44,553 nucleotides of DNA from a virus: the UHGV virus genome UHGV-0048026, one strand, 5' to 3'. Position 1 is the first letter of the stretch, and every line of letters starts with the position of its first letter. The translations under genes were made by a program, and so were the position numbers. Under the pieces are notes generated by a model. That model saw nothing but the letters and a program-made list of their open reading frames with translations, did not search any database and was not told the origin of the DNA. This document shows, piece by piece, positions 3,747 through 44,503 of the stretch.

Positions 3747-3772
3747 GTCATAACACTGTGTTACCTGGCTAA

Positions 3773-4372
3773 TCAGAATTTATAACCGACACCCACGATG
3801 AAACCGTCAGTGCGCCAGTCACCACTGCCGGAGCCTTCATAAGCAATATCAATGGCCACGGATTCGGTCGGGTTAAACTGCACGCCAGCCCCCCACGCCA
3901 GAGACGTGTTGCTGTGGCGACCGTCATCACTTCCGGTCAGCACATCGTGCTTTTTCCCCTTGTTGTCAGTTACGCGAAGATAATCCCCGGAGAAAGTCGA
4001 CACACGGCTGTAAGCTACACCCGCCATCGCATACGCGCTGAACCATTCATTCACGCGCACAGACGGCCCCGCCATTACGCTGAACCAGCGGTTACGAACG
4101 GAATCTTCATGCCAGCGGGTATCGCTGTAACGGGTCAGCTGGCGATTCTTGTCTCCTGCATAGCTGAATGACGTCACCAGCCCCAGTGTGTCCGTAAACT
4201 CATAACGGTATTTCACGTTAATCCCGTTCAGATCATCGCTGCCGGGGACGTTCGTCGAGGCATGAAGATACCCCGCGCTCAGCGTGGACTGATGTTCAGA
4301 CGCCCATGCAGGCGCACCGGATACGGCCAGACAAATGGCTGCGGACAAAATTGCTGCACAAACTTTACGCAT
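3773..4372 (-). CDS. lom: Lom outer membrane protein (Ail/Lom family), moron
   Basis: 199-aa ORF with signal peptide (MRKVCAAILSAAICLAVSGAPAWA) and beta-barrel-like C-terminus ending GYKF; lambda position between J and stf. Confidence 0.9.
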   Translation of the reverse strand: MRKVCAAILSAAICLAVSGAPAWASEHQSTLSAGYLHASTNVPGSDDLNGINVKYRYEFTDTLGLVTSFSYAGDKNRQLTRYSDTRWHEDSVRNRWFSVMAGPSVRVNEWFSAYAMAGVAYSRVSTFSGDYLRVTDNKGKKHDVLTGSDDGRHSNTSLAWGAGVQFNPTESVAIDIAYEGSGSGDWRTDGFIVGVGYKF

Positions 4373-4393
4373 AATTACCTCTCGCTTTTCTGC

Positions 4394-4420
4394 AATAAAA
4401 AAGGCGTCATTCCTGACGCC
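4394..4420 (-). terminator. putative intrinsic terminator between J and lom
   Basis: stem ggcgtca/tgacgcc (4403-4409 / 4414-4420) with loop ttcc, followed on the minus strand by UUUUUUAUU (plus 4392-4400). Confidence 0.55.
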
Positions 4421-4442
4421 CTTTATTGGGGTTATAAATATT

Positions 4443-7400
4443 TCAACGAATACTGATGCCGGAAGCGGCTTTTTTGGTCACAATCACCGTACAGTCGGTG
4501 ATATTGCCTGCCCCCTGATTGCCTTTCTGGAAAATCTTAAACTCCAGAGTGACGCTTCCCCTGCCACTCGGCATATCAATAACTGCACTGTAACTACCGG
4601 GAATGGCCCCTTTAGTTTCTCTGGATGCGATTAATACGCCGTTTTTGCGAACTTCAAAACCATAACCCGTGTATCGCGTGCCTCCTGGGTTATTTCCGCT
4701 CCCCGGATCGTCATACGCTATACCGTTAAAAATAATGGGCGGAATAATAATCTGGCGGTCAAAGTTATGATCATCGCTGATGGTGACTGTAACCGTACCG
4801 TTTGGTGTTTCCGTGTTACCCCACGTACCGACTTTTTTCGGGAAGGCTTTTGATACAGCTTTAACGAAATCTCCTCTGACCTGGGTCGCCTCCAGCATGC
4901 CCTTAATCGTACAGTTCTGGTTAATCGTGACATTGTTGAGCGTTCCTGAGTTCGCATTCACACTGCCACTGATATCCGCATTTTTCGCCGTCAGTCTCCC
5001 GTCTGATGTCAGGGAAAATGCCGGAGGATTACCGCCGCTGGTAATGGTGGGGGCCGTCAGGCGTTTCAGGAACACTTCATTCATGAATATCTGATCGCCC
5101 TGACCAACAAACATCGGCTTTGTGTTGCCATTCGCAGGATTAATCATCGCAATCCTGTCTGCTGCCAGCAGCACCTGACTCTGCATGCCGTCAGGGGTGT
5201 TCTCAATACCGGCACCGATACCCGCAATATAAAGGCGTCCGTCCTGCATCTGCTGCAGCTTCACTGCCCACATGCTGTTCAGGTTATTATTTGTATCAAC
5301 CTGAACCTTCTGTATCTGCTGGATCGCTGCACTCTGGTCTTCCAGTTTCTTATTGACGGTCTGTGTTATTTCATTGCTGACATCCGTTATGGACGTCCTG
5401 ATTTCAGTCAGGTCAGGCGCAAGCTGACCGTTATCAATCTGCGTCCACAGCTCCTGAGCCAGATGGGTTTTCCCTATCTCGCCTTTGAAAAAATCCAGAT
5501 AGCCTGATGCATCATCACTCGGCTGACCGACAGCCTCCACGAATACCGATTTGCCAACGGTGTTCACACTGCGAACGTAAAAATAATAATCATGGCCCGG
5601 TTTGATATTGATACTGGCGGCTATCCAGTACAGTGCCGTACCAAGATAACGCGCGCTGGTTTCAACCTGCCTGATATCCGCAATCCGTTTTTCCGAGAAC
5701 CAGAACTCAAACTGTACCGTCGGGTCATAAACCGCAAGATGCGGCGTGGCGGTTATCTGAAAATAGCCCGGTGTCAGCTCAATCCGAGACGGCGCTGCCG
5801 GTGCGGCAATCCGGAACGATACCGATGCCGGATCGCCCTGCTGTCCCCACGCATTTACCGCCCGGACTGTCAGCCTGTAGTTCCCCAACGCCAGTTGTGT
5901 GAAGCGGTATGTGGTTTCCGTCGTCCGGACCGTGCTGACCAGCCGCTCACTGCCGTCATCCGCTGTTACGGTCAGACGGAGCAGGAAGCTCACGCCCTTC
6001 ACCACCTTCGGCGTGTCCCAGCGGGCCAGTACCTGATACTCCCCGCAGTCTGCAGTGACTTCGGCGGTCAGATGCTGCACTGCTGGCGGCGTGACACCAT
6101 TCACCGTGCCGCTCTGGTCACCGTCAAAGTGCGCCCCGTTATCCACGATGGCCTCTTTCTCCGGCACATGCTGCACGGCAGTGATGGCATACGTGCCGTC
6201 GTCGTTCTCACGGATACTCACGCAGCGGAACAGGCGCTGGCGCAGCGTCGGCAGCTTAAGCCCCCACACGCTGTATTCAGCAACACCGTCAGGAACCCGG
6301 CTCACTTTTACCTTCACGCCGTCGGTGACGGACTGGACCTCCACGCTGACCGGATTGCCACTTCCGTCAACCAGGCTTATCAGCGTAGTACCGGAGGATG
6401 GCAGCGTGATTTCACGGTCGAGCGTCAGCGTCCGGGTCTGGCTGTTCACCGCCAGCACGCGCCCGCCGATGCTGATACCGGCATAGTCATCATCGCAGAT
6501 TTCAATGACATCGCCCGGTACATGGCGAAGCCCTTCGGCACCCACGCTGAAGTCCACGGTCTGCGTTTCCAGCAGTTCTGTTTTAATCAGCCACAGCCCG
6601 GCGCGATGTGCCTGCCCCCGGCTGGTACAGCCAAAAGCATCCATCTTCGTGACGTTACGACCATAACGGGCAATGGCCTGCGTATCTTCAACAAGCTCTG
6701 TCGCCGTCTCCCAGCCGTTGTTCGGGTCAATCCAGTTCACCTCAACGGCATTATGGCGGTCCTTCAGGGCGCTGAAGCTGTAGCGGAACGGCGCGCCATT
6801 ATCCGGCATCACCACATTACTGCGGTTATAGGTCCACACCTTATCTGATGGTCGGTCCTGCACGAACGTCAGCGTCTGCCCGTTCCATACCGGCATACAG
6901 CGCATCGCCGAGCAGAAATCACTGAGCACATCCCACGCCTTGCGCTGTGTGGTCAGGTACGCATTACAGGTGATGCGCGGCTCCGTGCCGCCAAAGCCGT
7001 CCGGCACTGACTGGTCGCAGTACTGGCCGATGACATACAGCACCCATTTGTCCACATCCGCCGCACCAAGACGTTTCCCCATGCCGTAGCGTGGATGGGT
7101 CAGCATATCCCACAGACACCAGGCCATGTTATTGCTGTATGCTGGCTTAAACGTTCCGTCCCAGATACCGCTGTATTGCCGCGTCTGCGGGTTATAGTTC
7201 GACGGCACCTGCAGAATACGCCCGCGCAGATGATAATTACGGCTCACCTGCTGGCTGCCGAACTGCTCCGAATCCACCTGTACGCCGACCAGTGCCGTGT
7301 TCGGGTAGCACTGTTTCACATCGATGATTTCGGTGTATGACGACCAGAGCGTTTTGTTCTGCAGCTGGTCTGTGGTGCTGTCCGGCGTCATCCTGCGCAT

Positions 7401-25635: not shown

Positions 25636-25788
25636 TTATTCAGATTTACGCAGTAAAGGCCGGAGCACGACCAGCGCCATCGCCACCAGCACACCATCTG
25701 CCAGCACCGACATCAGCCGTCCGGTGAAATCCACCGCCACTACCAGAAACAGCAGGATGGCAGCCAGCACAAGGCGCGCACTTTTCAC
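25636..25788 (-). CDS. small hydrophobic protein (50 aa, GTG start), lysis-cassette membrane component candidate
   Basis: GTG at 25788 overlaps stop of upstream gene (GTGA), SD GGAG 7 nt upstream; VKSARLVLAAILLFLVVAVDFTGRLMSVLADGVLVAMALVVLRPLLRKSE; below the 60-aa cutoff of the ORF track. Confidence 0.35.
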   Translation of the reverse strand: MKSARLVLAAILLFLVVAVDFTGRLMSVLADGVLVAMALVVLRPLLRKSE

Positions 25789-26210
25789 AGGTACTGCTCC
25801 AGCGGTAGCTGAAGCGCCTGCGCAATTTTCTTGAGCTGTGTTTCTTCATCCGGACCAATGCCATCCTGGTCAGCGATATCCAGACACAGGCACAGCACAT
25901 TAACTGCGTCATCAGTACCTGCCACGTCAGCCAGCTGACGAAGGGCTTCAGCATTGGCAGAGCGCGGCGACGCTTCATAACGGGCGCGGATATTTGCACT
26001 CATTTGTGCAATCTCACCGGAGAACGGCGCAAAGGCAGGAAGTGCTGCAATGGTTTTCTCCAGTACCGCGACTTCTTTCGCGTCACAGGTGTCGTCAGCA
26101 TATGCAATGGAATACGCGCCCCAGACGGTCGCCTCCACTGCGTCGCGGTTCTCCATCTTCTTCACTTCGGTAATGGCCTTGCGGGTTTTCTTTTTGAAAA
26201 TACCAAACAT
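25785..26210 (-). CDS. hypothetical protein, possibly TerB-like
   Basis: 141-aa ORF, SD AAGGA upstream; acidic helical protein; family assignment from recollection only. Confidence 0.45.
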   Translation of the reverse strand: MFGIFKKKTRKAITEVKKMENRDAVEATVWGAYSIAYADDTCDAKEVAVLEKTIAALPAFAPFSGEIAQMSANIRARYEASPRSANAEALRQLADVAGTDDAVNVLCLCLDIADQDGIGPDEETQLKKIAQALQLPLEQYL

Positions 26211-26888: not shown

Positions 26889-26963
<75 letters not shown>

Positions 26964-28875: not shown

Positions 28876-30070
<1,195 letters not shown>

Positions 30071-30220
30071 TTAGATATTTTAGATATTTTAGATATTTTA
30101 GATATTTTAGATATTTTAGATATTTTAGATATTTTAGATATTTTAGATATTTTAGATGTTTTAGATGTTTTAGATGTTTTAGATGTTTTAGATGTTTTAG
30201 ATATTTTAGATATTTTAGAT
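30071..30220. repeat. 9-bp tandem repeat array, about 16.5 copies (TTAGATATT x9, TTAGATGTT x5, TTAGATATT x2, partial)
   Basis: perfect head-to-tail 9-mers read directly from sequence; first unit supplies the IS5 target duplication; array ends about 180 bp upstream of porin ATG. Confidence 0.95.
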
Positions 30221-30399
30221 AAATACTGCATTGAAAATTATCACCAATATTTAACACCACACATAAATGTGATATTGATCACACTATAAACCCTTAAATA
30301 AACCCCATATCTTGAAATAACAGTACCGATTAGATGTATATTTAAGTTGCAGCGACATCATTTTTTAATAATAGTTCCCAAAAGGACTAAGGATTCATA

Positions 30400-31482
30400 A
30401 TGAAAAAATTAACAGTGGCAATCTCTGCTGTAGCAGCATCAGTATTGATAGCTATGTCCGCTCAGGCAGCTGAGATTTATAACAAAGACAGCAATAAATT
30501 AGATCTGTACGGAAAAGTTAATGCCGGGCACTACTTCTCCTCTAACGATAAACACGATGGTGACAAAACTTATGCTCGTCTGGGATTCAAAGGTGAAACC
30601 CAAATCAACGATAAACTGACTGGTTTCGGTCAGTGGGAATATGAATTCAAAGGCAACCATGCTGAATCTCAAGGTTCCTCCGCAGACAAAACCCGTCTTG
30701 CGTTTGCTGGTCTGAAATTCGGCGACTACGGCTCCATCGATTATGGTCGTAACTACGGTGTAGCATACGATATCGGTGCATGGACTAACGTTCTGCCAGA
30801 ATTCGGTGGCGATACCTGGACTCAAACAGATGTATTCATGACTGATCGCACCACAGGTGTTGCAACTTATCGTAACAACGACTTATTTGGTCTGGTTGAT
30901 GGTCTGAACTTTGCTGCTCAGTATCAGGGTAAAAATGACCGCACTGACGTAACTCAAGCTAATGGTGATGGTTTCGGTTTCTCCACTACTTATGAGTATG
31001 AAGGATTCGGCGTAGGTGCAACCTATGCTAAATCTGACCGCACTAATAATCAGGTTATCTACGGTAACAACAGCCTGAATGCATCTGGTCAAAATGCTGA
31101 AGTATGGGCAGCTGGTCTGAAATATGATGCGAGCAACATCTATCTGGCTACTACCTATTCTGAAACCCAAAACATGACTGTTTTTGGTAAAAACCATATT
31201 GCCAACAAAGCACAAAACTTCGAAGTAGTTGCACAATATCAGTTCGACTTCGGTCTGCGTCCGTCCGTTGCTTACCTGCAATCTAAAGGTAAAGACCTTG
31301 GCGTTTTTGGTGACCAAGATTTAGTCAAATATGTTGATGTAGGTGCAACCTATTATTTCAACAAAAATATGTCAACTTTTGTTGATTACAAAATCAACCT
31401 ACTTGACAAAAATGATTTCACCAGAAATCTTGATATAAACGCCGACGATATTGTTGCTGTCGGTATGGTTTACCAGTTCTAA
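30400..31482 (+). CDS. outer membrane porin, Lc/NmpC (OmpC/OmpF family)-like, intact
   Basis: 360-aa ORF with signal peptide [39 protein letters not shown] mature N-terminus and C-terminal ...VYQF; SD AAGGA 7 nt upstream. Confidence 0.92.
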
Positions 31483-31669: not shown

Positions 31670-32053
31670 TCAATAACACCTAACAACTTCGCGATCCATC
31701 TCGAGACGAACATCCAATGCCATCAACATTCCTTCGACTATTCCTTCAGCCTTCTGAAGTTTTTTTCCTATATATCCATCAGAACAATGATGCTTACAGG
31801 CCAGTGCCATGAACGTCATACCAACCACATAATAATCTATCAGCAAATCATGCAAATCACTGTTGTTCTTTTTCAGACGAGCCATGCAACCACAGATAAC
31901 CATTGCGTCATCATCACAACATTGCGGGCGTGACTTAACCTTTGACGGAATCAGTCCTTTGAATCCCGCAGCAATCGGTGACCAGGTAACATCCTCGTGG
32001 TTATTTGCCACCCATGCCCCCCAACGCTCAAGAACCATCTGGATATCACGCAT
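31670..32053 (-). CDS. late-gene antiterminator Q-like protein (small, DLP12 QuuD-type)
   Basis: 127-aa ORF, Cys/His-rich ([16 protein letters not shown]...ACKHHCSDG), located last in early-right operon immediately before a TTGACT -35-like element; family call from recollection. Confidence 0.7.
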
Positions 32054-35629: not shown

Positions 35630-35859
35630 GGATGTACCTCCTGCACATCAGCCATGAGCATTTTACTGGCTGTTTCCAGCGCCTGGTCGGCGCTAATTTG
35701 CATGACAGCCAGTGAATGAGGAACGAAAGTCCCGGCATATTCTGTTTCACTGGTGGCGTGCTTATGCGCCCTGTCTGCAATAACAGAGATGTCAATAAGC
35801 GCATCCATCAGAGTTTTAATTACCGTAACAGTGGTATCTGAATAATGGTTATTACACAT
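35626..35859 (-). CDS. hypothetical protein (77 aa)
   Basis: ORF coupled to flanking genes by short overlaps. Confidence 0.5.
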   Translation of the reverse strand: MCNNHYSDTTVTVIKTLMDALIDISVIADRAHKHATSETEYAGTFVPHSLAVMQISADQALETASKMLMADVQEVHP

Positions 35860-36517
35860 GACGCGCCTCCCGTTGATTACAGCGGAAAGCAGTGTGAGTC
35901 AGGCTGGTTTCGGCCTCATGAAATGCTTCAATACAGCTCTCGTAGTACCGCATTGTGCGCAGACTTAACCCAAGCTGAAGCATCATCAGACCATCAAGGG
36001 TGATGTAATAACCACGCAGGGAATCGCCATACACGTGGTAAGTACCCGGAATGAAATTACGGGAGAAGAATTCACGTGAGCAGTTCAGATACTCGATTTT
36101 GTCGACGATGTTCTGGTGCATGCGCTTAAAGTGGCAGGCAACATGCAGGGAGAAAATAACAGCTTTGCCGTTGACGACTTCGATTTTCAGGTATGGGGAA
36201 GTTGGGACTGTAGCCATGATGGCAGCCTCCGTATGCAATGGATAACTTCCACCACCGGAGGTTCCAATCTCACTGGTGGTGAACTGGACAGGGTTGGAAC
36301 TACCGGCGCATACGGAAACCGGCGAGCCTTTCGGCTCCCCTGCCCAGCCCACCATAATTCTGGCGTGCGTGAGCGCGGACGATAAAAAAGACGCTGGCGC
36401 GTCATATATCGCCGTATGCAATTCCGGGGTTCCAATCCCGACACCCGCTTTATAAGGTGCCAGAACAGTGTAACGTCCCGAAATTGCAGAATCAATATTT
36501 AGGCTTGAAACATTCAT
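35852..36517 (-). CDS. hypothetical protein (221 aa)
   Basis: long ORF with no recognised motif; weak SD. Confidence 0.55.
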   Translation of the reverse strand: MNVSSLNIDSAISGRYTVLAPYKAGVGIGTPELHTAIYDAPASFLSSALTHARIMVGWAGEPKGSPVSVCAGSSNPVQFTTSEIGTSGGGSYPLHTEAAIMATVPTSPYLKIEVVNGKAVIFSLHVACHFKRMHQNIVDKIEYLNCSREFFSRNFIPGTYHVYGDSLRGYYITLDGLMMLQLGLSLRTMRYYESCIEAFHEAETSLTHTAFRCNQREARHV

Positions 36518-37457: not shown

Positions 37458-37751
37458 ATGAAAGTTCAGGCCGTTGGTTTATTCTGGTTTCGCGATGCGA
37501 TTCAGTATCATGAGCTCAAAAATATTTTTACTGATGCTGATGTGCTCTCCGACAGTTACACCGAGTGGAAACACGACGCTGAAAAATTGATTAAGCGTGT
37601 CGAAAGAAGCGGGCAACGAGTTATTAAAGTTGAAGCGGATACAGCCGAGTTCATCACCTGGTGTACAAGCGAAGGCATTGGAATCAATGCCGAAGGTAGA
37701 ATGCAGTTCGCATCCTTTAAGGCTTACCAACAACTTCTCAGCGAACGCTAA
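37458..37751 (+). CDS. hypothetical protein (97 aa) on the strand opposite to the early-right operon
   Basis: strong SD AAAGGAGG 7 nt upstream of ATG; overlaps a 110-aa minus-strand ORF (37479..37811) so strand assignment is uncertain. Confidence 0.45.
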   Translation: MKVQAVGLFWFRDAIQYHELKNIFTDADVLSDSYTEWKHDAEKLIKRVERSGQRVIKVEADTAEFITWCTSEGIGINAEGRMQFASFKAYQQLLSER

Positions 37752-37821
37752 TGTGATTGGGGCAATCGAAATGGTTGCCCCATCGTATTTAATAGTTATT
37801 TTTTCGCTCATATCACCACCA

Positions 37822-38031
37822 TCACTTCTCCTCCCCCGTGTGCGCTAAGCTTGGGTGTGTATATGGAATGTTCGGATCCAGATGGCAGAGAATGGCAACA
37901 TCCTCCGGAACGCCCCGCGTTTTCCACTTTCCAACTCCCTGACTACCACGAGGCTTTCCTTTCTTTGGAAACCTACGGCCAATAGCGGCATTGGTTTTAA
38001 ATTGAGTTTTTAATATTTCATAAAGGGTCAT
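37822..38031 (-). CDS. Cro-position small basic protein (69 aa)
   Basis: divergent from CI-like repressor across a 111-bp region; SD GAGG 7 nt upstream; no clear HTH recognised. Confidence 0.45.
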   Translation of the reverse strand: MTLYEILKTQFKTNAAIGRRFPKKGKPRGSQGVGKWKTRGVPEDVAILCHLDPNIPYTHPSLAHTGEEK

Positions 38032-38142
38032 TCTTTAGCCTCACACCGGATACTCTGTTATCCAAGAATGTTAAACGCGAGAATCCAAAGTATCAAGAAA
38101 TTCTGTTACTTTAGTATCAACAGCCATGAAAGGAGAAGAAAA
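38032..38142. promoter_or_regulatory. divergent promoter/operator region (OR-like)
   Basis: palindrome GGATAC-N4-TTATCC (38048-38063), imperfect palindrome AGTATCAAG-N5-CTGTTACT (38089-38110) and second GTATCA (38114-38119). Confidence 0.4.
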
Positions 38143-38799
38143 ATGAAGTCTTTAGGTGAACGCCTCATCAACGCACGACAAAAAGCTGGGTTAACGCAAG
38201 ATGCGTTGGCTAAAAAAGCAGGGGTCACCAGAGTTGCAATCAGTAAAGCCGAGCAAGGCCTTACAAAAAGTTTCAACGGTGACACCCTTTTTAAAGTCGC
38301 AGCTGCACTGCAGTGTTCACCGCAGTGGCTTCAGAACGGAGATGAAAAAGATAAGCATTGGGAAAATAATGTTAAGAGCTGCCCACAGAGAGACACAGCA
38401 CACTCTTACCCTGTAATTAACTGGGTTCAGGCAGGATTATTCGCAACTGCTGGTGATGACTACAACATGTATGATCAGGATAACTGGAGGCATTCTGTAA
38501 AATACGCTGGTGAGAGGGGGTTCTGGCTGGAAGTGCACGGAGACTCAATGACTTCGCCCGTAGGAATAACATTTCCTGAAGGAATGTCGATCCTTGTCAA
38601 CCCAGATAAAGAAGTTTTTTCAGGGTGTTACGTCATCGCCAGAAAAAAATCCACCAATGAAGCAACATTCAAAAAATATATTTCTGAAATGGGAAAGGCG
38701 TTTCTAAAGCCCCTTAATCCACAATATCCAATCATAGAAATGGACAATGATTGCGAAATAGTAGGTGTTGTAGTTGATGCCAGGTGGGATATTTTCTGA
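38143..38799 (+). CDS. CI-like repressor (N-terminal HTH_XRE, C-terminal S24 LexA-type peptidase)
   Basis: 218 aa from ATG 38143 (SD AGGAG); HTH (LTQDALAKKAGVTRVAISKAEQG), catalytic Ser in GDSM and Lys in FKKY. Confidence 0.88.
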   Translation: MKSLGERLINARQKAGLTQDALAKKAGVTRVAISKAEQGLTKSFNGDTLFKVAAALQCSPQWLQNGDEKDKHWENNVKSCPQRDTAHSYPVINWVQAGLFATAGDDYNMYDQDNWRHSVKYAGERGFWLEVHGDSMTSPVGITFPEGMSILVNPDKEVFSGCYVIARKKSTNEATFKKYISEMGKAFLKPLNPQYPIIEMDNDCEIVGVVVDARWDIF

Positions 38800-38826
38800 C
38801 CAGACTCAAAACACAAAAAGAAACCA

Positions 38827-38898
38827 AAGTATCAGAAATCACTTGCCACACCTTGATACCTTAGTTACCATAAAACAAAGTTCGTAACTGAGGTATCA
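38827..38898. promoter_or_regulatory. OL-like operator/promoter region
   Basis: inverted repeat AAGTATCA-N18-TGATACCT (38827-38861) and AGGTATCA (38891-38898) directly upstream of the first early-left gene. Confidence 0.4.
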
Positions 38899-38902
38899 TC
38901 TC

Positions 38903-39406
38903 ATGATCAATAAAGCTACAACTCTTGACTGTCTTGAAGAACTGAAAAACCTCGGCAGTCTCATTACACTAATAGCCAAAGCAACGCCAGATGCTACGCT
39001 CTCTGGCGATATCGAGTCATGCGCAGGACTGGCATGGGATATGACAAATAGCATATCCAGAAAGCTATCGTCAGCAATGCTTTTACAGAACAAAAATTCT
39101 GCAATCAACAACCGTCTTCGCACCCAACGCGAAGCCTGCGGTTTAACAACCGCCGAACTCGCCAGGCTGCTCGATCTCGATGAAGAAATTATCATCCAGT
39201 GGGAGAGCGGAGAGTATGAACCAACCATCAGTATGCTTATCCCACTGGCAAATGTTCTTGGCTGTGATCCGATGCGGCTGTTAACTGGCGAGGTTACTCC
39301 TCCGGAGCAACCAAAAAGTGAGGAGCAGCAACACCATGACGCATCTCAACAAGTTTGCTCCTTATCTCGCGAAGCTCTTCTACGGAAGAACCAATACCAA
39401 TGGTGA
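38903..39406 (+). CDS. HTH_XRE domain protein (167 aa) in the position of lambda N
   Basis: central HTH (ACGLTTAELARLLDLDEEIIIQWESGEYEPTISMLIPLANVLGCDPMRLL); first gene after the OL-like repeats. Confidence 0.6.
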   Translation: MINKATTLDCLEELKNLGSLITLIAKATPDATLSGDIESCAGLAWDMTNSISRKLSSAMLLQNKNSAINNRLRTQREACGLTTAELARLLDLDEEIIIQWESGEYEPTISMLIPLANVLGCDPMRLLTGEVTPPEQPKSEEQQHHDASQQVCSLSREALLRKNQYQW

Positions 39407-39534
39407 CATAATCGCCGCTTCGCCCCTCAAGGTACATGCGAACATTTTTATCAATCATTGCGGAAACAGTCTCAATATGAAAACACTTCTGAGACTCGCT
39501 ATATAGCAGAACATATAAGTCAGCTGAGGAAGCC

Positions 39535-39900
39535 ATGAAAAAGTTCGAAAACATAACTGTTCTCCATGTTGATGACTTTGATTATACAAACCCGGAACTT
39601 CTCCCGGAGGTTGTAAAGGCAATAGATGTTGCCGATATAGTGATTAGAGGAAAGAGAATTGTCAAAAACAGGCTCGCATGCACTTCAGGAGCAATGACAG
39701 AAACAACCTCACAACAAGATGATTATGAAGGCATTTGTCTGGAGCCGGACTCATTTGCGGTAAATGTTTATCATTTATTGCATGCAACACAGGTATTACA
39801 TATGTCCAGTAATCACGAAACAAAAACACTTGGCAGCGAAATTCTGAATTTTGCATGTGAATATGCAAAATCTGCTGCCGAAAAAGAATTAGCGCAATAA
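39535..39900 (+). CDS. hypothetical protein (121 aa)
   Basis: ORF with SD GAGGAA. Confidence 0.55.
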   Translation: MKKFENITVLHVDDFDYTNPELLPEVVKAIDVADIVIRGKRIVKNRLACTSGAMTETTSQQDDYEGICLEPDSFAVNVYHLLHATQVLHMSSNHETKTLGSEILNFACEYAKSAAEKELAQ

Positions 39901-40096
39901 CAATAAATATTCCCTGAATGTTTATTACGGTTTTATCGCCGGGGATTGTTGCAACCTTTATTCGCAGGAGATTATGTTATGACCTTCCTGAAACATAAGG
40001 CATCGTATAAAACTGCCTGCCTCATTGCACAACATGAAGATTCTTATCTTCATATAGCCAACCTGTATTTGCGCAAAGCATATGGGAGATAAATAA

Positions 40097-40285
40097 ATGA
40101 AAGGAAAACAACAGAACATAACACATAAAAAAGTAAGAGTGTTGCTAACCATTGAAAATGGTGAAGTAATTTACTCAAAACATCTGTTGGATAATGAATT
40201 CGTTGGCTGCATGGATACATTTCTGTGGATGGCAAAAAGAGCGGGTTACACGATTATTCCACCGGCAAAGGAGCAAACATTATGA
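40097..40285 (+). CDS. hypothetical small protein (62 aa)
   Basis: stop overlaps next start (ATGA). Confidence 0.45.
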   Translation: MKGKQQNITHKKVRVLLTIENGEVIYSKHLLDNEFVGCMDTFLWMAKRAGYTIIPPAKEQTL

Positions 40286-40863
40286 ATCATTCAGAGTTCC
40301 GACCAGAAGTTACGCCACATGGCATAAAAATTGGCAATACAACCATTGATTATGTTGAGGCCGTACAGCGGCTTAATGATGGTGAATACGATTATCCAAA
40401 TTCTCACGGTTTAAGAATTATGCAATGTATTGCTGAAGCCGATGATGCCGGATTACTGGGACGATTTTCAGTCGATATGAAGATTGCTCAATGGCGATGG
40501 CTGTATGTGACGACGTTTATAAATGAAGAAGAAGGCAAGAACGGCACCATTGATATCCCTAACGATAACGGAACTACAGATCGCGCTGTTATTTATAAGG
40601 GGAAGCATGGTTGCATGAGTATATACCCAGGACCACTTCGCATTGCCCTGCAAAACCATGTCGAATGGGGATTTATTGAAAAATATGGCGAAGCTGAAGG
40701 CATGGGGCGAGTTCTGTTTCTCTATCAAAATATGCTCATCGCAGATCCTGATAATGGTTTCATTGTTTCTGCTATGGGGCGCGAAGGGCTTGAACTCCTT
40801 CTGGATGAAATGATTAACGACCTGAATACTCATGGTATGCCAGAAGCGCCAGTGACACATTAA
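40282..40863 (+). CDS. hypothetical protein (193 aa)
   Basis: ATG 40282 with SD AAGGAG; translationally coupled to the upstream 62-aa ORF. Confidence 0.6.
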   Translation: MNHSEFRPEVTPHGIKIGNTTIDYVEAVQRLNDGEYDYPNSHGLRIMQCIAEADDAGLLGRFSVDMKIAQWRWLYVTTFINEEEGKNGTIDIPNDNGTTDRAVIYKGKHGCMSIYPGPLRIALQNHVEWGFIEKYGEAEGMGRVLFLYQNMLIADPDNGFIVSAMGREGLELLLDEMINDLNTHGMPEAPVTH

Positions 40864-41040
40864 ATATTAAGAAGAAAATAATTCTTCCAGTTTTTTACTA
40901 ACCGTTTGTATGAAAAGCAACCGTGAATTAAACAGAGTAAAACTGATTTTAATCCTTGCCACAGTACTGACACTAACTGAAATCATTATTCTCTTTATTG
41001 TGCTGTCAGTCGGTTAAAAATATCGGGATACCACAGACCA

Positions 41041-41229
41041 ATGAGACTGTATTTCACAATAGTAATTTTACTGGCAATTATCGCATGTATTTACGGATTA
41101 CTTGTTCCGTTCCTTATATCCATGAAGGATACGATAGCAGTTATTTCTGGCTTTGCACTGGCGTTTCTGACCCCGCCCTGCATTTATGCCATTTACAAGG
41201 GTCTTTCTTTCACTAAGGATAAAAGATGA
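41041..41229 (+). CDS. small two-TM membrane protein (62 aa)
   Basis: hydrophobic ORF (MRLYFTIVILLAIIACIYGLLVPFLISMKDTIAVISGFALAFL...), stop overlaps start of SPFH gene. Confidence 0.5.
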   Translation: MRLYFTIVILLAIIACIYGLLVPFLISMKDTIAVISGFALAFLTPPCIYAIYKGLSFTKDKR

Positions 41230-42053
41230 AAAAAATTATTTTTGCTTTAGCCATTGTTCTGCCGACTATTGGCCTTGTCGGTTGCGATCGCGTTGAACCA
41301 GGTAATGTTGGCATCAAGGTAAATAAACTGGGCGACGACAAAGGCGTCGGTGAGGTGGTCGGTGTTGGTCGCTACTGGACTGGCTGGAATACTGAAGTTT
41401 ACATCTTCCCCACCTTCAAGCAAATGAAGACCTACGATGAACCGTTCAGTTTCCAGATGAGTGACGGTACAACCATCGGCTATCACATTGGCGTGGCCTA
41501 CAAAGTTGATCCATCCAAAGTTACCACGGTGTTTCAGACCTACCGCAAAGGCGTGGATGACATTACCGACACTGACCTGCGCCAGAAGATCGCCGACGCA
41601 CTCAACCGACTGGCCAGCAAAATGACCACTGACAAATTTATCGACGGCGGCAAGTCTGAGCTGCTGGATGCAGCCCTTAAAGACATTCAGGCAGAAATGA
41701 CGCCCATCGGTATTCAGGTAATGAGTCTCTCATATGTGGGTAAGCCGGAGTACCCGCCAACCGTTATCGACAGCATTAATGCCAAAGTCACGGCAAACCA
41801 GAAGACCCTGCAACGCGAACAGGAAGTAAAACAGCGCGAAGCGGAAGCCAACATGTTGCGCGCGGAAGCTGCCGGACAGGCTGACGCCATTCGCACAAAA
41901 GCCCAGGCCGAAGCCGATGCTATTCGTTTACGCGGTGAAGCTCTGCGCCAGAACCCTGGTGTTATGGAACTGGAAGCCATTAATAAATGGAACGGCACAC
42001 TGCCGCAATACATGACCAGCGGTGCCAGTACACCATTTATCCAGGTTAAATAA
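41226..42053 (+). CDS. SPFH/band-7 (prohibitin-like) family lipoprotein
   Basis: 275 aa; lipoprotein signal with lipobox LVGC; C-terminal A/E/R/Q-rich coiled coil typical of SPFH proteins. Confidence 0.75.
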   Translation: MKKIIFALAIVLPTIGLVGCDRVEPGNVGIKVNKLGDDKGVGEVVGVGRYWTGWNTEVYIFPTFKQMKTYDEPFSFQMSDGTTIGYHIGVAYKVDPSKVTTVFQTYRKGVDDITDTDLRQKIADALNRLASKMTTDKFIDGGKSELLDAALKDIQAEMTPIGIQVMSLSYVGKPEYPPTVIDSINAKVTANQKTLQREQEVKQREAEANMLRAEAAGQADAIRTKAQAEADAIRLRGEALRQNPGVMELEAINKWNGTLPQYMTSGASTPFIQVK

Positions 42054-42093
42054 CTTATACGCCCGGCAGACCGCCGGGCTAAGGGAAAAGCAG

Positions 42094-42465
42094 ATGAACA
42101 CCCATAATGCCCAACCGCAAATAATGAACTATGACCCGAATCTGACGTCATGCGGACGTATGGCAAAACAAACCGTTCGATTAACTTTCGGGTTATGGGA
42201 ATACCGCGAAACATTCGAAGTTACTGTCGGCGGCAATCTGACCGGACTGGATGTTATCAGTTGCGCTATTGAAAGCCTGTACGCAACACTGCCTTATGAA
42301 GAAGTCGAGGATGAGCGCACAGGGGGAACAGATATCATGGCCACCATTAATATTGGCGAACTGATATGTCAGGATGAAGACCTGTCCGGAGAACTCTGGC
42401 TTGCCGGGATGCTTATCTCAGCAGAAATTATCAGTATTGAACCCGCTACAAACATACGGCTCTGA
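42094..42465 (+). CDS. hypothetical protein (123 aa)
   Basis: ATG 42094 with SD AAGGGA-like upstream. Confidence 0.5.
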   Translation: MNTHNAQPQIMNYDPNLTSCGRMAKQTVRLTFGLWEYRETFEVTVGGNLTGLDVISCAIESLYATLPYEEVEDERTGGTDIMATINIGELICQDEDLSGELWLAGMLISAEIISIEPATNIRL

Positions 42466-42496
42466 AGTTCTCACTATTCAGAGAGCAGGAGAAAAA

Positions 42497-42739
42497 ATGT
42501 TCGCTTTGATTAATCAGGGACAACTGTATACCGACAGTGCCGGTTACCCGGTAAAAATTATTCGCTGCATAAATAACACTGTGTTGTACAGAAGAATGGA
42601 TGGGCGAACACAGTCGGTAAAAATAAACGATTTTAATGAACTGTTTGAACGGCTCGATCACCAGAAATACCGACAAATTCTGGCAGAAACAGAACAGGAA
42701 ACTCATCTGAAAAAATTACGGGTCATGAAAAGGAAATAA
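42497..42739 (+). CDS. hypothetical protein (80 aa)
   Basis: ATG 42497 with SD AGGAG. Confidence 0.5.
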   Translation: MFALINQGQLYTDSAGYPVKIIRCINNTVLYRRMDGRTQSVKINDFNELFERLDHQKYRQILAETEQETHLKKLRVMKRK

Positions 42740-42742
42740 AGA

Positions 42743-42889
42743 ATGAATAAAGCGTTTGAGCTATGGGTACGCCAGCGTTACGGCAATCGCTATGACCTGA
42801 CGCGAGATGTTGACGGTTTCTACAGCCGTGAAATTGTGAAACGAATGTTTGAAGTGTGGTGCCACTGCCGTGGGCTGAGTGTTGTGTGA
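42743..42889 (+). CDS. small hypothetical protein (48 aa) upstream of xis
   Basis: ATG 42743 with SD AAGGAAA; not in ORF track (below cutoff); MNKAFELWVRQRYGNRYDLTRDVDGFYSREIVKRMFEVWCHCRGLSVV. Confidence 0.35.
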   Translation: MNKAFELWVRQRYGNRYDLTRDVDGFYSREIVKRMFEVWCHCRGLSVV

Positions 42890-42897
42890 GGTAATGC

Positions 42898-43134
42898 ATG
42901 GGCAATGTGATTCAACTGGCTCCCAATGAATGGGTTTGTGAAAGCGTTCTTATCGCAATTACCGGGCTCAAACCAGGCACAATTCTCCGGGCCCGGAAAG
43001 AATGCTGGATGGTAGGAAGAGAGTATATTCACGTATCACCAGACGGTAATCCAAAGCCATCCAGCGAATGTATGTATAACAGAAAAGCAATAGATGCCTG
43101 GGTCGCTTCAATGAAAAACAAACAACCTGGGTGA
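42898..43134 (+). CDS. xis: excisionase-like DNA-binding protein
   Basis: 78-aa ORF directly upstream of integrase; segment VGREYIH resembles lambda Xis DGREYLFH motif. Confidence 0.6.
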   Translation: MGNVIQLAPNEWVCESVLIAITGLKPGTILRARKECWMVGREYIHVSPDGNPKPSSECMYNRKAIDAWVASMKNKQPG

Positions 43135-43189
43135 TTTAATGCCATGAAGTATGTAAGCTCGTATCGCTCTTGGGCGTCTGGAGGTATCA

Positions 43190-44503
43190 ATGGATAAAGT
43201 CAAATATCCAACAGGCGTCGAAAACCACGGTGGCACATTACGCATCTGGTTTAATTTTAAAGGTAAACGTGTCAGGGAAAATCTTGGTGTCCCTGACACT
43301 GCCAAGAACAGGAAGATCGCCGGAGAGCTGCGGACATCTGTATGTTTTGCTATTCGTACAGGAAACTTTGATTACGCTGCGCAGTTCCCTGACTCTCCTA
43401 ACCTCAAGGCTTTTGGGGTAAATAAAAAAGAAATTACGGTGAAGGAACTTGAAGAAAAGTGGCTGGATCTGAAACGAATGGAAATCTCTGCAAATGCATT
43501 CAATCGCTATGAATCCGTTGCAAGAACGATGGTTCCGAAAATTGGAGGCAGCAGACTGGTGTCATCGGTAACTAAAGAGGAATTGCTGTATATCAGGAAA
43601 GATTTGCTGACCGGGTATCAGAATTCAACGAAAAACAAAGCAGCAGCAAAAGGACGGAGCGTCGTTACTGTAAATTATTACATGACGACAATCGCTGGAA
43701 TGTTTCAGTTTGCTGCAGATCACGGTTACTTAGAAGCAAATCCCTTCCAGGGAATTAAGCCTCTTAAAAGAGCCAGGGCAGAGCCAGATCCGCTAACTCG
43801 TGACGAATTTATTCGCCTGATAGATGCTTGCCGACATCAGCAGACGAAAAACCTGTGGTCATTGGCTGTGTACACAGGAATGCGTCACGGTGAACTGGTC
43901 TCCCTGGCCTGGGAAGATATCGATCTGAAAGCAGGAACTATTACTATCAGGCGCAATTATACGAAACTCGGTGAGTTCACTCTACCTAAAACTGAAGCAA
44001 GTACAAACAGGGTTGTGCATCTTATCCAGCCTGCTATCAGTGTCCTGAAAAATCAGGCTGAAATGACAAGACTGGGTAAGCAGCACCACATCAAGGTTCA
44101 ACTACGTGAATATGGGCGTTCAGTGAATCATGAATGTACTTTCGTATTTAACCCCCAGGTGGTTAGAAAAAGCAAACAGGTCGGTTTTATCTACAAGGTA
44201 GATTCCATTGGCGACTCATGGGAAACAGCCATTAAGCGTGCGGGCATCAGGCACCGGAAAGCATACCAGTCACGACACACTTATGCGTGCTGGTCATTAT
44301 CTGCCGGAGCAAACCCAAGCTTCATTGCCAGCCAGATGGGCCATGCAAGTGCCCAGATGGTGTTCAATGTATACGGAGCATGGATGACTGACAGTAATGC
44401 AGAACAGATCGCAATGCTGAATCAGAAGCTGGCAGATTATGTCCCAATGATGTCCCATGGTCACCAAAGTGACACAAGAGACTTATTAAAATCAGTGGGT
44501 TAG
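43190..44503 (+). CDS. int: tyrosine site-specific integrase
   Basis: 437-aa ORF; C-terminal catalytic boxes (MRHGEL..., SRHTYACW, GHASAQMVFNVYGAW with Tyr). Confidence 0.9.
   Translation: MDKVKYPTGVENHGGTLRIWFNFKGKRVRENLGVPDTAKNRKIAGELRTSVCFAIRTGNFDYAAQFPDSPNLKAFGVNKKEITVKELEEKWLDLKRMEISANAFNRYESVARTMVPKIGGSRLVSSVTKEELLYIRKDLLTGYQNSTKNKAAAKGRSVVTVNYYMTTIAGMFQFAADHGYLEANPFQGIKPLKRARAEPDPLTRDEFIRLIDACRHQQTKNLWSLAVYTGMRHGELVSLAWEDIDLKAGTITIRRNYTKLGEFTLPKTEASTNRVVHLIQPAISVLKNQAEMTRLGKQHHIKVQLREYGRSVNHECTFVFNPQVVRKSKQVGFIYKVDSIGDSWETAIKRAGIRHRKAYQSRHTYACWSLSAGANPSFIASQMGHASAQMVFNVYGAWMTDSNAEQIAMLNQKLADYVPMMSHGHQSDTRDLLKSVG

What the first reader, a model, noticed from the sequence alone, without database searches (positions are those of the whole stretch)
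38903..42889. Early-left accessory cluster lacks recognisable N, exo/bet/gam or cIII and consists of uncharacterised genes
Between the OL-like repeats and xis there are nine plus-strand ORFs: an HTH_XRE protein with a 60-aa N-terminal extension in the N position, a 121-aa protein, a coupled 62/193-aa pair, the SPFH pair, and three small ORFs (123, 80, 48 aa). I recognise none as lambda recombination or regulatory genes. In lambdoid prophages this pL-proximal region is a hotspot for anti-defence, exclusion and host-modulation genes.
Basis: inference. Interest (0 to 1): 0.5.

Follow-up and report, generated by a model that had tools for sequence, protein, structure and literature searches.

The report
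Prophage early-left accessory operon, P27 type
This is the leftward early operon of an E. coli SE11 prophage, a near copy of genes L10-L03 of the published Shiga-toxin phage phiP27: a patchwork of real but mostly function-unknown accessory genes that replaces lambda's N, recombination and cIII genes, which is ordinary for prophages.

Summary
Nine plus-strand ORFs lie at the stated coordinates. Pfam, PHROGs, NCBIfam and PADLOC assign none of them to N, Exo/Bet/Gam or cIII.

The cluster is not new. The window is E. coli SE11, and the region is 97% identical to phiP27 genes L10-L03, annotated "unknown" since 2002. Parts of it occur in 910 of 5,426 complete E. coli genomes.

What I added:
- A tenth, minus-strand gene (39294-39554, 86 aa) was missed. 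It is under purifying selection.
- The cluster is a mosaic of cassettes that assort independently.
- The first gene is a P22-C2-like HTH protein. Its variable N-terminal domain tracks the cI immunity type one-to-one in 72 loci, whereas its HTH is shared across immunity types.
- ORF2 carries a free-standing homologue of that N-terminal domain family.
- The SPFH lipoprotein and its coupled two-helix membrane partner form a module also found in virulent phages such as N4.
- ORF8 belongs to DUF4222, the family of the prophage regulator RgdR.
- ORF4 gives a confident model with no structural neighbour.

No nut-like site was found, and no canonical plus-strand terminator lies between pL and int.

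Exclusion, anti-defence or host-modulation roles remain untested. Interest is modest.

The parts
38819..38898 (+). OL/pL region. It holds three copies of the operator core RGTATCA (38827-38834 +, 38854-38861 -, 38891-38898 +), including an inverted pair TGATACCTTAGTTAC / GTAACTGAGGTATCA. It also holds a promoter-like site, TTGCCA (38843) - 17 nt - TACCAT (38871).
   Evidence: repeats D2, I2, I5, I9 shared with the cro-cI gap; promoter-like site; motif enrichment.
38903..39406 (+). ORF1, 167 aa, made of three parts. The N-terminal helical domain (aa 1-65) is variable. The HTH_XRE domain (aa 68-132) is P22-C2-like. The last 37 aa form a poorly conserved tail that runs antisense through the minus-strand gene.
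   Evidence: phrog_4739 full length; phrog_4836; P22 C2, E 1e-5; N-terminal type is 1:1 with cI type; pN/pS 0.12 for N-terminus plus HTH; 0.61 for the tail.
39294..39554 (-). Missed gene, 86 aa, convergent with ORF1. Its 5' end overlaps the start of ORF2 by 20 nt. GGAG lies 7 nt before the ATG at 39554, and a perfect TATAAT lies at 39586-39581 on the minus strand.
   Evidence: phrog_6104, positions 1-80/80, E 9.6e-50. (intact in PhiR49_2 and ASU11). (pS 0.58, pN 0.17; the only open frame of six).. (33%-identical genes annotated on Klebsiella plasmids). (eight other antisense ORFs hit no PHROG).
39535..39900 (+). ORF2, 121 aa. It has a small alpha/beta N-terminal domain, a disordered linker and a C-terminal two-helix hairpin ('domain X'). 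Domain X is homologous to the N-terminal domain of ORF1-family regulators.
   Evidence: phrog_5451 full length; E 5e-11, 49% over 47 aa; AF2 model; pN/pS 0.16 for X.
40097..40285 (+). ORF3, 62 aa, phrog_340. It is translationally coupled to ORF4 by an ATGA overlap.
   Evidence: pN/pS 0.16.
40282..40863 (+). ORF4, 193 aa, phrog_1515. The alpha/beta model is confident but has no structural neighbour.
40871..40896 (+). Weak hairpin (6 bp, -4.3 kcal/mol) followed by a T6 run, just after the ORF4 stop. It may be a leaky terminator in front of the SPFH cassette.
40910..41017 (+). Candidate 35-aa single-helix membrane peptide, MKSNRELNRVKLILILATVLTLTEIIILFIVLSVG.
   Evidence: intact in 15 of 16 sequence variants of this gap. 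No family match.
41041..41229 (+). ORF5, 62 aa, a two-helix membrane protein (phrog_1130). It is coupled to ORF6 and is the conserved partner of phage SPFH lipoproteins.
   Evidence: 18 synonymous and 0 non-synonymous changes; homologues upstream of the SPFH gene in P88, N4-type VEc25, Ostro and Seu621.
41226..42053 (+). ORF6, 275 aa, an SPFH/Band-7 lipoprotein. The lipobox is LVGC with Cys20 and Asp at +2. A C-terminal Ala/Glu/Arg-rich segment looks helical by eye.
   Evidence: 107.8 bits against a cut-off of 23.6; phrog_200; HflK/C only sub-threshold; 665 phage records; pN/pS 0.03.
42054..42083 (+). Strong G+C-rich hairpin just after ORF6 (-17.1 kcal/mol, z -3.15). No U-run follows it.
42094..42465 (+). 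ORF7, 123 aa, DUF5406.
   Evidence: 79.8 bits; phrog_3409; no PDB relative; pN/pS 0.15.
42497..42739 (+). ORF8, 80 aa, DUF4222 (the RgdR family). It has QGQ where RgdR has RGD.
   Evidence: (59.6 bits).
42743..42889 (+). ORF9, 48 aa, phrog_3871. It sits beside xis in most relatives.
   Evidence: pN/pS 0.22.

Best explanation
The region is the cI-controlled leftward early (pL) operon of a phiP27-type early/integration module. In E. coli SE11 that module is joined to lambda-like head and tail genes.

Shown:
- Operators of the same type as those in the cro-cI gap flank a promoter-like site directly in front of ORF1.
- From there to int, all nine ORFs, xis and int lie on one strand.
- There is no nut-like element and no canonical intrinsic terminator on that strand.

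Inferred: one transcript can reach xis-int without an N-type antiterminator.

The operon is a mosaic of independently exchangeable cassettes.

1. Regulatory head.
- ORF1 is a P22-C2-like HTH DNA-binding protein. Its variable N-terminal helical domain always travels with its own cI/cro/operator set. I infer that this domain is an oligomerisation or partner-contact domain.
- A small convergent minus-strand gene follows. I infer that it can be expressed when pL is repressed.
- ORF2 ends in a free-standing copy of the regulator-type hairpin. I infer that it modulates ORF1-type regulators by mixed oligomer formation.

2. The coupled ORF3/ORF4 pair, whose function is unknown.

3. A moron-like membrane cassette: possibly a 35-aa peptide, then a two-helix membrane protein, then an SPFH lipoprotein. 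I infer that it builds an SPFH ring on the periplasmic face of the envelope around its small partner and alters envelope behaviour during infection.

4. DUF5406, a DUF4222 (RgdR-family) small protein and a 48-aa protein next to xis.

The phage carries no homologous-recombination genes of its own.
For: - Identity with SE11 and phiP27.
- Operators and promoter.
- No plus-strand terminator-like site between 38800 and 43250.
- No boxA enrichment. Rfam matched only C4, isrK and a weak c4-a1b1 target, all at 36272-36473 and outside the cluster.
- About 25 nt separate the predicted -10 from the ORF1 ATG, which leaves no room for a nut site.
- Coding status of the genes.
- Mosaic assortment in 80 or more loci.
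- ORF1 N-terminal type is 1:1 with cI type, across four immunity groups and 72 loci.
- The HTH is closest to P22 C2 among solved structures.
- ORF2 hairpin homology (E 5e-11 and 1.5e-8) and AF2 hairpin.
- Minus-strand gene.
- SPFH plus two-helix pair conserved in P88, N4-type VEc25, Ostro and Seu621, all with lipoboxes.
- Hairpins flanking the SPFH cassette.
- No N, Red, cIII or defence family hits.
Against: - There are no expression data, so the promoter, the single-transcript model and lysogen expression of the minus-strand gene all rest on sequence patterns. Promoter-like matches in the region are no more frequent than in shuffles.
- The terminator scan is crude. Two hairpins (after ORF4 and after ORF6) could terminate or pause transcription.
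- The 1:1 link between ORF1 N-terminus and cI could reflect physical adjacency and lack of homology for recombination, not function. The loci are not phylogenetically independent.
- The window's own ORF1 N-terminal type (A) is linked to ORF2's hairpin only transitively and not in a pooled profile comparison.
- ORF2's hairpin type does not co-vary with regulator type. That weakens a cognate-pair model.
- Functions of ORF3, ORF4, ORF7 and ORF9 remain unassigned.
- Lipoprotein sorting is inferred from the +2 Asp rule only. Relatives carry Tyr, Ser or Glu at +2.
Confidence: 0.6

Rival explanations
1. The cluster is mainly cargo that protects or reprograms the lysogen. It would hold superinfection exclusion or anti-phage defence genes (the SPFH membrane cassette, the minus-strand gene, ORF3/4), anti-defence genes and host-modulation genes (the DUF4222 protein). 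These would be expressed from their own promoters in the prophage state.
For: - The cassettes are present or absent independently of the phage backbone.
- The SPFH cassette moves between P27-type, P2/186-type and P1-type phages and is flanked by hairpins.
- In N4-type phage VEc25 the pair sits next to a gene annotated as superinfection exclusion.
- The minus-strand gene is oriented so that it can be expressed while pL is repressed.
- RgdR, a DUF4222 member, reprograms host type III secretion and motility.
- A prophage SPFH HflK/C-like protein of Pasteurella is reported as a virulence factor.
Against: - No PADLOC match for any ORF except generic HTH hits.
- The SPFH pair is common in strictly virulent phages, which have no lysogen to protect.
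- ORF8 lacks the RGD motif and is only distantly related to RgdR (pairwise E 0.11). SE11 is a commensal.
- No paper in the searched library links SPFH proteins to phage exclusion.
- ORF1 and ORF2 look regulatory.
Confidence: 0.25
2. Hidden functional analogues. The cluster supplies lambda-like early functions with unrelated proteins. ORF1 would act as a cII-like activator or second repressor that sets the lysis-lysogeny choice. The periplasm-facing SPFH lipoprotein would act like HflK/HflC on FtsH, and so replace cIII as a modulator of regulator stability.
For: - PHROGs labels the related family phrog_4836 'CII-like regulator', and one phage record annotates the homologue as 'putative CII repressor'.
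- No lambda-type cII is annotated to the right of cro.
- ORF6 gives weak hits to the HflC and HflK models (E 9e-6 and 6e-5).
- A lipoprotein SPFH domain would face the periplasm as HflK/C do (established HflKC-FtsH topology; my inference for ORF6).
Against: - The HflC/HflK scores are 24.7 and 22.7 bits against cut-offs of 134 and 159.
- The SPFH cassette is absent from many relatives that keep the same cI, ORF1 and ORF2, so it is not core to the lysogeny decision.
- The same pair is found in virulent phages.
- The 'CII-like' labels are annotation by HTH similarity. Lambda CII is not an HTH_3 protein with this architecture.
- No target promoter was identified.
Confidence: 0.1
3. Decaying remnant. 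The ORFs are leftovers of a cryptic prophage and are no longer functional genes.
For: - The prophage carries an IS5-family insertion and one pseudogene elsewhere.
- The ORF1 tail, the N-terminal half of ORF2 and ORF8 show no clear purifying selection among close relatives.
Against: - pN/pS is 0.00-0.22 for most ORFs.
- Only one variant (an ORF1-tail variant) carries an in-frame stop, across 11-73 loci per gene.
- The same genes occur in inducible phages: phiP27, ASU11 (obtained by mitomycin C induction) and PhiR49_2.
- RBS motifs and translational coupling are intact.
Confidence: 0.05

Closest known systems
Phage phiP27 (Stx2e phage; AJ298298 / NC_003356) genes L10-L03
   Same: The same genes in the same order between the cI-like L11 and xis/int. 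Nucleotide identity is 97% over 96% of the region. Both integrate next to the same type of integrase.
   Different: - phiP27 has a different ~560-bp insert with L09 in place of the 86-aa minus-strand gene, of which it keeps only the first 30 codons. Its L10 is 138 aa, not 167.
- phiP27 is a myovirus carrying stx2e. The SE11 prophage has lambda-like head and tail genes, and an ompC paralogue plus an IS5 element where stx sits.
- All eight genes were annotated 'unknown', apart from a 'putative serine protease' label on L05.
Lambda pL operon (N, ral, sieB, cIII, kil, gam, bet, exo, xis, int)
   Same: Same position and orientation: downstream of cI and OL, ending in xis-int. It has a tripartite-looking operator shared with OR, and a non-essential, mosaic character (lambda map from established knowledge).
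   Different: - No N, nut, cIII, Kil, Gam, Bet or Exo family member.
- The first gene is a C2-like HTH protein, not an arginine-rich antiterminator.
- No canonical terminators to overcome.
RgdR (ECs1581, prophage CP-933C/Sp7 of E. coli O157:H7), the studied member of DUF4222
   Same: ORF8 and RgdR both pass the DUF4222 gathering threshold (59.6 and 82 bits against 27). Both are small basic prophage proteins.
   Different: - Pairwise similarity is marginal (33% over 27 aa, E 0.11).
- ORF8 has QGQ where RgdR has the functionally important RGD.
- ORF8 is 80 aa, RgdR 99 aa.
- The genomic context differs: RgdR lies in a P4-like element next to a primase.
Bacterial SPFH operons (HflK/HflC-FtsH; QmcA-YbbJ and YqiK-YqiJ SPFH-NfeD pairs)
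   Same: A Band-7/SPFH domain protein is encoded together with, and translationally coupled to, a small membrane partner.
   Different: - ORF6 is anchored by a lipobox, not a transmembrane helix.
- The partner has two helices and no NfeD/OB domain (no Pfam hit).
- HflK/HflC model scores are far below cut-off.
- The pair is a phage lineage found in 665 phage records.
P22 C2 / 434-type repressor DNA-binding domains (HTH_3, XRE family); DicA
   Same: ORF1 aa 68-132 aligns with the P22 C2 N-terminal domain (E 1e-5) and with DicA positions 2-83.
   Different: - The domain order is reversed. The HTH is C-terminal, and the putative oligomerisation domain is an N-terminal helical hairpin.
- There is no S24 peptidase domain.
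- The DicA subfamily score is 43 bits against a cut-off of 101.

Membership tests
Lambda N-type antitermination (N protein plus nutL) | A small arginine-rich N-family protein encoded first after pL | tested here: not met
   ORF1 matches HTH_3 and phrog_4739. No N family hit appears in Pfam, PHROGs or NCBIfam.
Lambda N-type antitermination (N protein plus nutL) | A boxA/boxB nut site in the pL leader | tested here: not met
   boxA-like YGCTCTTWA with up to 1 mismatch: 27 matches against 27.2 expected, none between pL and ORF1. The leader is only about 25 nt. Rfam found nothing in the cluster. boxB was not modelled separately.
Red recombination module (Exo, Bet, Gam) | Proteins matching the Exo (YqaJ), Bet/RecT/Erf or Gam families | tested here: not met
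   No such hit for any of the nine ORFs, the minus-strand gene or the 35-aa ORF. None is annotated in the whole prophage.
cIII (FtsH inhibitor) | A roughly 54-aa cIII-family protein | tested here: not met
   No cIII family hit for any small ORF. A functional analogue cannot be excluded by sequence.
HTH_XRE / Cro-C1 type regulators (PF01381) | HTH_3 domain above the gathering score | tested here: met
   ORF1 scores 42.3 bits against 23, at aa 72-123. P22 C2 is the best PDB relative.
SPFH / Band 7 (PF01145) | SPFH domain above the gathering score | tested here: met
   ORF6 scores 107.8 bits against 23.6, at aa 22-208, covering the full profile.
HflK / HflC (FtsH modulators) | Score above the NCBIfam equivalog cut-off | tested here: not met
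   24.7 bits against 134.4 (HflC) and 22.7 bits against 159.4 (HflK).
SPFH-NfeD operon | Partner protein with an NfeD (OB-fold) domain | tested here: not met
   ORF5 is 62 aa with two hydrophobic helices and no Pfam hit.
Bacterial lipoprotein | Signal peptide ending in a lipobox L-x-[GA]-C | tested here: met
   MKKIIFALAIVLPTIGLVGC-D, read directly from the sequence. Lipoboxes are also present in the P88, VEc25, Ostro and Seu621 homologues. Lipid modification itself is not testable here.
DUF4222 / RgdR family | DUF4222 domain above the gathering score | tested here: met
   ORF8 scores 59.6 bits against 27. RgdR scores 82 bits.
DUF4222 / RgdR family | RgdR orthology: the RGD motif and close similarity to ECs1581 | tested here: not met
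   QGQ replaces RGD, and pairwise BLASTP gives E 0.11.
DUF5406 | Domain above the gathering score | tested here: met
   ORF7 scores 79.8 bits against 25.
Known anti-phage defence systems (PADLOC-DB 2.0) | A match to any defence-system protein model | tested here: not met
   Only generic HTH matches for ORF1 (RmrA, CapH and similar). There is nothing for the other ORFs, and a marginal Cas11a hit (E 0.04) for the minus-strand gene.
Moron (autonomous accessory cassette in a phage operon) | Presence/absence polymorphism independent of the flanking genes | tested here: met
   ORF5 and ORF6 are present in roughly 40% of the related loci that extend far enough, irrespective of immunity type or ORF3/4 allele. 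They are also found in P88 and P1-type phages.
Moron (autonomous accessory cassette in a phage operon) | Own promoter and terminator | tested here: inconclusive
   There is a weak hairpin plus T6 upstream and a strong GC hairpin without a U-run downstream. Promoter-like matches occur at chance frequency.

The most novel reading that the evidence does not exclude
P27-type early regions would run their lysis-lysogeny circuit without N, cII or cIII. They would use a previously undescribed layer instead. In that layer, a C2-like HTH protein has a variable N-terminal hairpin that is specific for its own immunity module, contacting its cognate cI or Cro or conferring immunity-specific oligomerisation. 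A free-standing hairpin protein (ORF2) titrates it. A convergent antisense gene provides transcriptional interference with pL in the lysogen.
Probability: 0.12. Interest if true: 0.6.

Novelty: new member of a known kind. Interest (0 to 1): 0.3.

Why it matters
This early-left module is common. Parts of it occur in 910 of 5,426 complete E. coli genomes, including Stx2a-, Stx2d- and Stx2e-converting phages.

If ORF1 and ORF2 prove to be an immunity-linked control layer, that would bear on how P27-type Stx prophages are induced.

The SPFH lipoprotein with its two-helix partner is one of the more widespread unexplained phage membrane modules. The SPFH gene matches 665 phage records, from haloarchaeal viruses to N4, and the partner was confirmed in four diverse phages. 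This temperate E. coli copy is a genetically tractable place to study it.

For genome annotation, the practical gains are an unannotated 86-aa gene and a corrected ORF2 start.

None of this changes the main verdict. A block of unknown accessory genes in this position is normal for prophages.

Tried and rejected
- **PDB sequence searches.** No relative for the ORF4 profile, ORF7 or ORF6, and only chance-level hits for ORF8.
- **PADLOC and NCBIfam.** Nothing informative for any ORF or for the minus-strand gene.
- **nut and RNA elements.** The boxA pattern occurs at chance frequency. Rfam hits lie only outside the cluster.
- **ORF1 operator.** No inverted repeat was found in 39250-40110.
- **ORF1 against ORF2.** Direct BLASTP is not significant. 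A pooled profile comparison of all N-terminal types against ORF2's hairpin was weak (hhalign probability 53% or lower). Homology became clear only type by type.
- **Cognate-pair idea.** I rejected the idea that ORF2's hairpin type co-varies with the regulator's type. Types A, B and E all sit next to the same ORF2 allele, and L090 combines a 167-aa regulator of the window's length next to a cI of the same length (its N-terminal type was not determined) with an E-like ORF2 hairpin.
- **Literature.** The phiP27 (PMC127862) and P1 (PMC523184) genome papers are not held. No paper mentions DUF5406. No paper found links SPFH proteins to phage exclusion.
- **Other antisense ORFs.** Eight of them in the cluster hit no PHROG, and I treat them as spurious.

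Full report
**1. What the window is**

Window 38800-42900 is 100% identical to E. coli SE11 (NC_011415.1, 2161643-2165743). It is 97% identical, over 96% of its length, to Stx2e phage phiP27 at positions 1633-6094.

In phiP27 these genes are L10 to L03. All are annotated "unknown" except L05, which is called "putative serine protease" or lipoprotein.

The SE11 prophage sits next to yecE (DUF72), yecN and cmoA. It is a hybrid. Its heads and tails are lambda-like: gpJ, tape measure, portal, S49 protease, decoration protein and major capsid. Its early, replication, Q and int-xis regions are P27-like. An ompC paralogue and an IS5-family element sit where phiP27 carries stx2e.

Parts of the cluster occur in 910 of 5,426 complete E. 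coli genomes, and 71 genomes carry at least 80% of it.

**2. Checking the observation**

RefSeq also calls nine genes here, although it shortens ORF2 to 68 aa.

The OL-like repeats are real. The cro-cI gap and the cI-ORF1 gap share AGAAWCCAAAGTATCA. They also share the 15-16-nt element TTGATACYWWAGTWAC, which forms an inverted pair at 38854-38868 and 38884-38898. The core DRGTATCA occurs 14 times in the window against 4.7 expected, with 0 of 100 shuffles reaching 14. Five of those copies lie in the two operator regions.

A promoter-like site, TTGCCA-17-TACCAT at 38843-38871, sits among the OL repeats.

Family assignments:

| ORF | Assignment |
|---|---|
| ORF1 | HTH_3 |
| ORF6 | SPFH/Band 7 |
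| ORF7 | DUF5406 |
| ORF8 | DUF4222 |
| ORF2, 3, 4, 5, 9 | only function-unknown PHROGs (ORF5: "membrane protein") |

None matches N, Exo, Bet, Gam or cIII. No recombination gene is annotated anywhere in the prophage.

The ORFs are real genes. Across 11-73 related loci per gene, pN/pS is as follows:

| Gene | pN/pS |
|---|---|
| ORF1 (N-terminus + HTH) | 0.12 |
| ORF2 hairpin | 0.16 |
| ORF3 | 0.16 |
| ORF4 | 0.20 |
| ORF5 | 0.00 (18 synonymous, 0 non-synonymous) |
| ORF6 | 0.03 |
| ORF7 | 0.15 |
| ORF9 | 0.22 |
| cI (reference) | 0.08 |
| xis (reference) | 0.03 |

The N-terminal half of ORF2 and ORF8 had too few substitutions to be informative.

**3.

*A tenth gene on the minus strand.* A minus-strand ORF at 39294-39554 (86 aa) fills the ORF1-ORF2 gap and overlaps the last 37 codons of ORF1.
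- It matches phrog_6104 over the whole 80-position profile (E 9.6e-50).
- It is intact in PhiR49_2 (97.5% aa identity).
- It is also intact in ASU11 (78% aa identity). There the regulator gene ends earlier, so the ORF occupies what would otherwise be a 221-bp gap.
- Window against ASU11 gives pS 0.58 and pN 0.17 (ratio 0.29). This is the only one of the six frames that is open in both sequences.
- GGAG lies 7 nt upstream of the ATG at 39554, and a perfect TATAAT lies at 39586-39581.
- Relatives at 33% identity are annotated as genes on Klebsiella plasmids.
- As a control, eight other antisense ORFs in the cluster hit no PHROG.
- phiP27 itself keeps only the first 30 codons and has a different insert, L09.

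*A possible eleventh gene.* A 35-aa ORF at 40910-41017 encodes a charged N-terminus followed by one hydrophobic helix. It is intact in 15 of 16 sequence variants of that gap. I rate it as a candidate only.

**4. Mosaic anatomy**

I fetched 80 IMG/VR loci with ORF1 and scored each window protein in each locus. The units that travel together are:
- (a) cro, cI and the ORF1 N-terminal domain;
- (b) the ORF1 tail with the minus-strand gene;
- (c) ORF2;
- (d) ORF3/ORF4, which come in two alleles about 50% and 66% identical; ORF4 is sometimes absent;
- (e) ORF5+ORF6, which are present or absent together;
- (f) ORF7;
- (g) ORF8 and ORF9 next to xis.

These units recombine freely with one another.

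**5. The gene in the "N position"**

Among solved structures, ORF1's HTH (aa 68-132) is closest to the P22 C2 repressor DNA-binding domain (E 1e-5). It is DicA-like but below that family's cut-off.

Database relatives keep this HTH at 81-97% identity but carry at least ten unrelated-looking N-terminal segments of 50-60 aa. Many are about 230 aa long with a second HTH.

In 72 loci the N-terminal type and the upstream cI type correspond one-to-one across four immunity groups. Sub-types related to type 1 sit next to related cI proteins. The recombination joint therefore lies inside ORF1, and the N-terminal domain behaves as part of the immunity module. This could be functional, through contact with cI or Cro or through immunity-specific oligomerisation. 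It could equally be plain linkage. I cannot separate the two, and the loci are not independent samples.

**6. ORF2**

The 121-aa form is supported by several lines:
- a full-length match to phrog_5451;
- homologues of 117-123 aa down to 46% identity;
- a GAGGAA ribosome-binding site.

AlphaFold2 gives a small alpha/beta N-terminal domain (pLDDT about 72), a disordered linker, and a two-helix hairpin at aa 71-120 (pLDDT about 89).

That hairpin is homologous to regulator N-terminal domains. It gives E 5e-11 (49% over 47 aa) against type 1. An ORF2 variant (P0088) gives E 1.5e-8 against type 3. In the Stx2_14040 prophage the regulator is hairpin + HTH + HTH, and the next gene is a stand-alone hairpin.

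The window's own type A links to this set only transitively: A to P0251 at E 1e-8, then P0251 to type 3 at E 1e-4. A pooled profile comparison was weak. The hairpin type of ORF2 does not co-vary with the regulator type.

My inference, not shown, is that the hairpin is an oligomerisation module. ORF2 could then form mixed oligomers with ORF1-family regulators.

**7. Transcription logic**

The following were shown:
- No nut-like element: boxA occurs at chance frequency, there is no Rfam hit in the cluster, and the leader is only about 25 nt.
- No canonical plus-strand terminator-like site between 38800 and 43250.
- All genes down to int lie on one strand.

Two hairpins bracket the SPFH cassette. 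The first is weak (-4.3 kcal/mol) with a T6 run, after ORF4. The second is strong (-17.1 kcal/mol, z -3.15) but has no U-run, after ORF6.

I infer that pL transcripts can reach xis-int without an N-type factor. The only antiterminator gene annotated in the prophage is a Q-family one at 31670-32053.

**8. The SPFH cassette**

ORF6 has a lipobox (LVGC, with Asp at +2) and a full SPFH domain. tblastn finds relatives in 665 phage records. These include strictly virulent groups such as N4-like Schitoviridae and a Vequintavirinae myovirus, together with Staphylococcus phages of about 140 kb, Pseudomonas phages of about 45 kb and haloarchaeal viruses.

In four other phages, a 66-84-aa two-helix protein lies upstream of the SPFH gene, overlapping it in three and one gene removed in Seu621. 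These are P88 (P2/186-type), VEc25 (N4 species), Pseudomonas phage Ostro and Klebsiella phage Seu621. All four partners share the motif G.L.P.L.S..D.I.V..GF with ORF5, and all four SPFH proteins have lipoboxes.

This is therefore an old two-component phage membrane module, not a prophage-specific conversion gene. Similarity to HflK/HflC is far below cut-off, and the partner is not NfeD. I found no experimental function in the literature searched. A Pasteurella prophage SPFH protein has been reported as a virulence factor.

**9. The remaining genes**

- ORF4 belongs to a small family: 131 clusters at 50% identity among 1.84 billion proteins, nearly all 190-220 aa. The model is confident (pLDDT 88.5) but has no structural neighbour in PDB or BFVD.
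- ORF8 is a DUF4222 protein. RgdR (ECs1581) is confirmed here as DUF4222 (82 bits). It activates LEE1 and type III secretion and represses motility. ORF8 is only distantly related to it (E 0.11) and has QGQ instead of RGD.
- ORF3, ORF7 and ORF9 have no assignable function.

**10. Verdict**

The "hotspot" interpretation is plausible for part of the cluster but is unsupported by any defence-family match, and it does not fit the first two genes. The cluster is a near copy of a region published in 2002, and its kind is familiar: a mosaic accessory early-left operon.

The points worth a follow-up are:
- the immunity-linked variable domain on a conserved HTH, together with its free-standing paralogue;
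- the unannotated antisense gene;
- the widespread SPFH plus two-helix phage module.

Noticed in passing
window 36272-36473, minus strand: Rfam finds a C4 antisense RNA (84.3 bits, E 5e-16) and an isrK Hfq-binding RNA (63.1 bits), plus a weak c4-a1b1 target. This looks like a P1/P7 immI-type (c4-icd-ant-like) antirepressor control module in the early-right region. Both RNAs fall inside the 5' part of the CDS that RefSeq calls 'ash family protein' (35852-36517), so that CDS start may be over-extended.
   Followed up: no
window 39294-39693: Synonymous diversity across related loci is about ten-fold lower here (pS about 0.012) than in the flanking genes (pS 0.10-0.18). This stretch holds the minus-strand gene and the first half of ORF2. 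The cause could be a recent sweep of the segment or overlapping constraints from divergent, overlapping gene starts and a promoter.
   Followed up: partly
window 29022-31482: An IS5-family (ISKpn26-like) transposase and a full-length ompC porin paralogue sit between the Q-family antiterminator and the DNA methyltransferase. In phiP27 this is the late-promoter cargo position occupied by stx2e.
   Followed up: no
window 37458-37782: A 97-aa plus-strand ORF (phrog_4753, function unknown) lies between cro and the Rha/Ant-like gene and points against the early-right operon. The only plus-strand terminator-like hairpin found in the scanned stretch 37700-43250 follows it at 37758-37782.
   Followed up: no
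window 43182-43189: The operator core AGGTATCA recurs immediately upstream of the int start codon (GGAGGTATCAATG). The sequence resembles the ORF1 ribosome-binding region (GAGGTATCATCTCATG). This may be coincidence or a cI-related site in front of int.
   Followed up: no
window 39694-39900 versus 39535-39900: RefSeq annotates ORF2 as 68 aa and does not annotate the 86-aa minus-strand gene or the 35-aa ORF. PHROGs and homologues of 117-123 aa support the 121-aa form.
   Followed up: yes
window 25785-26210 and 26889-26963: A TerB-family (tellurite-resistance-like) protein gene and a tRNA-Gly gene lie in the late region, upstream of the lysis genes.
   Followed up: no
L093 (N4-type phage VEc25) 907-2331: In this N4-species phage, the two-helix-protein and SPFH pair lies directly downstream of a gene annotated as 'superinfection exclusion protein'.
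   Followed up: no
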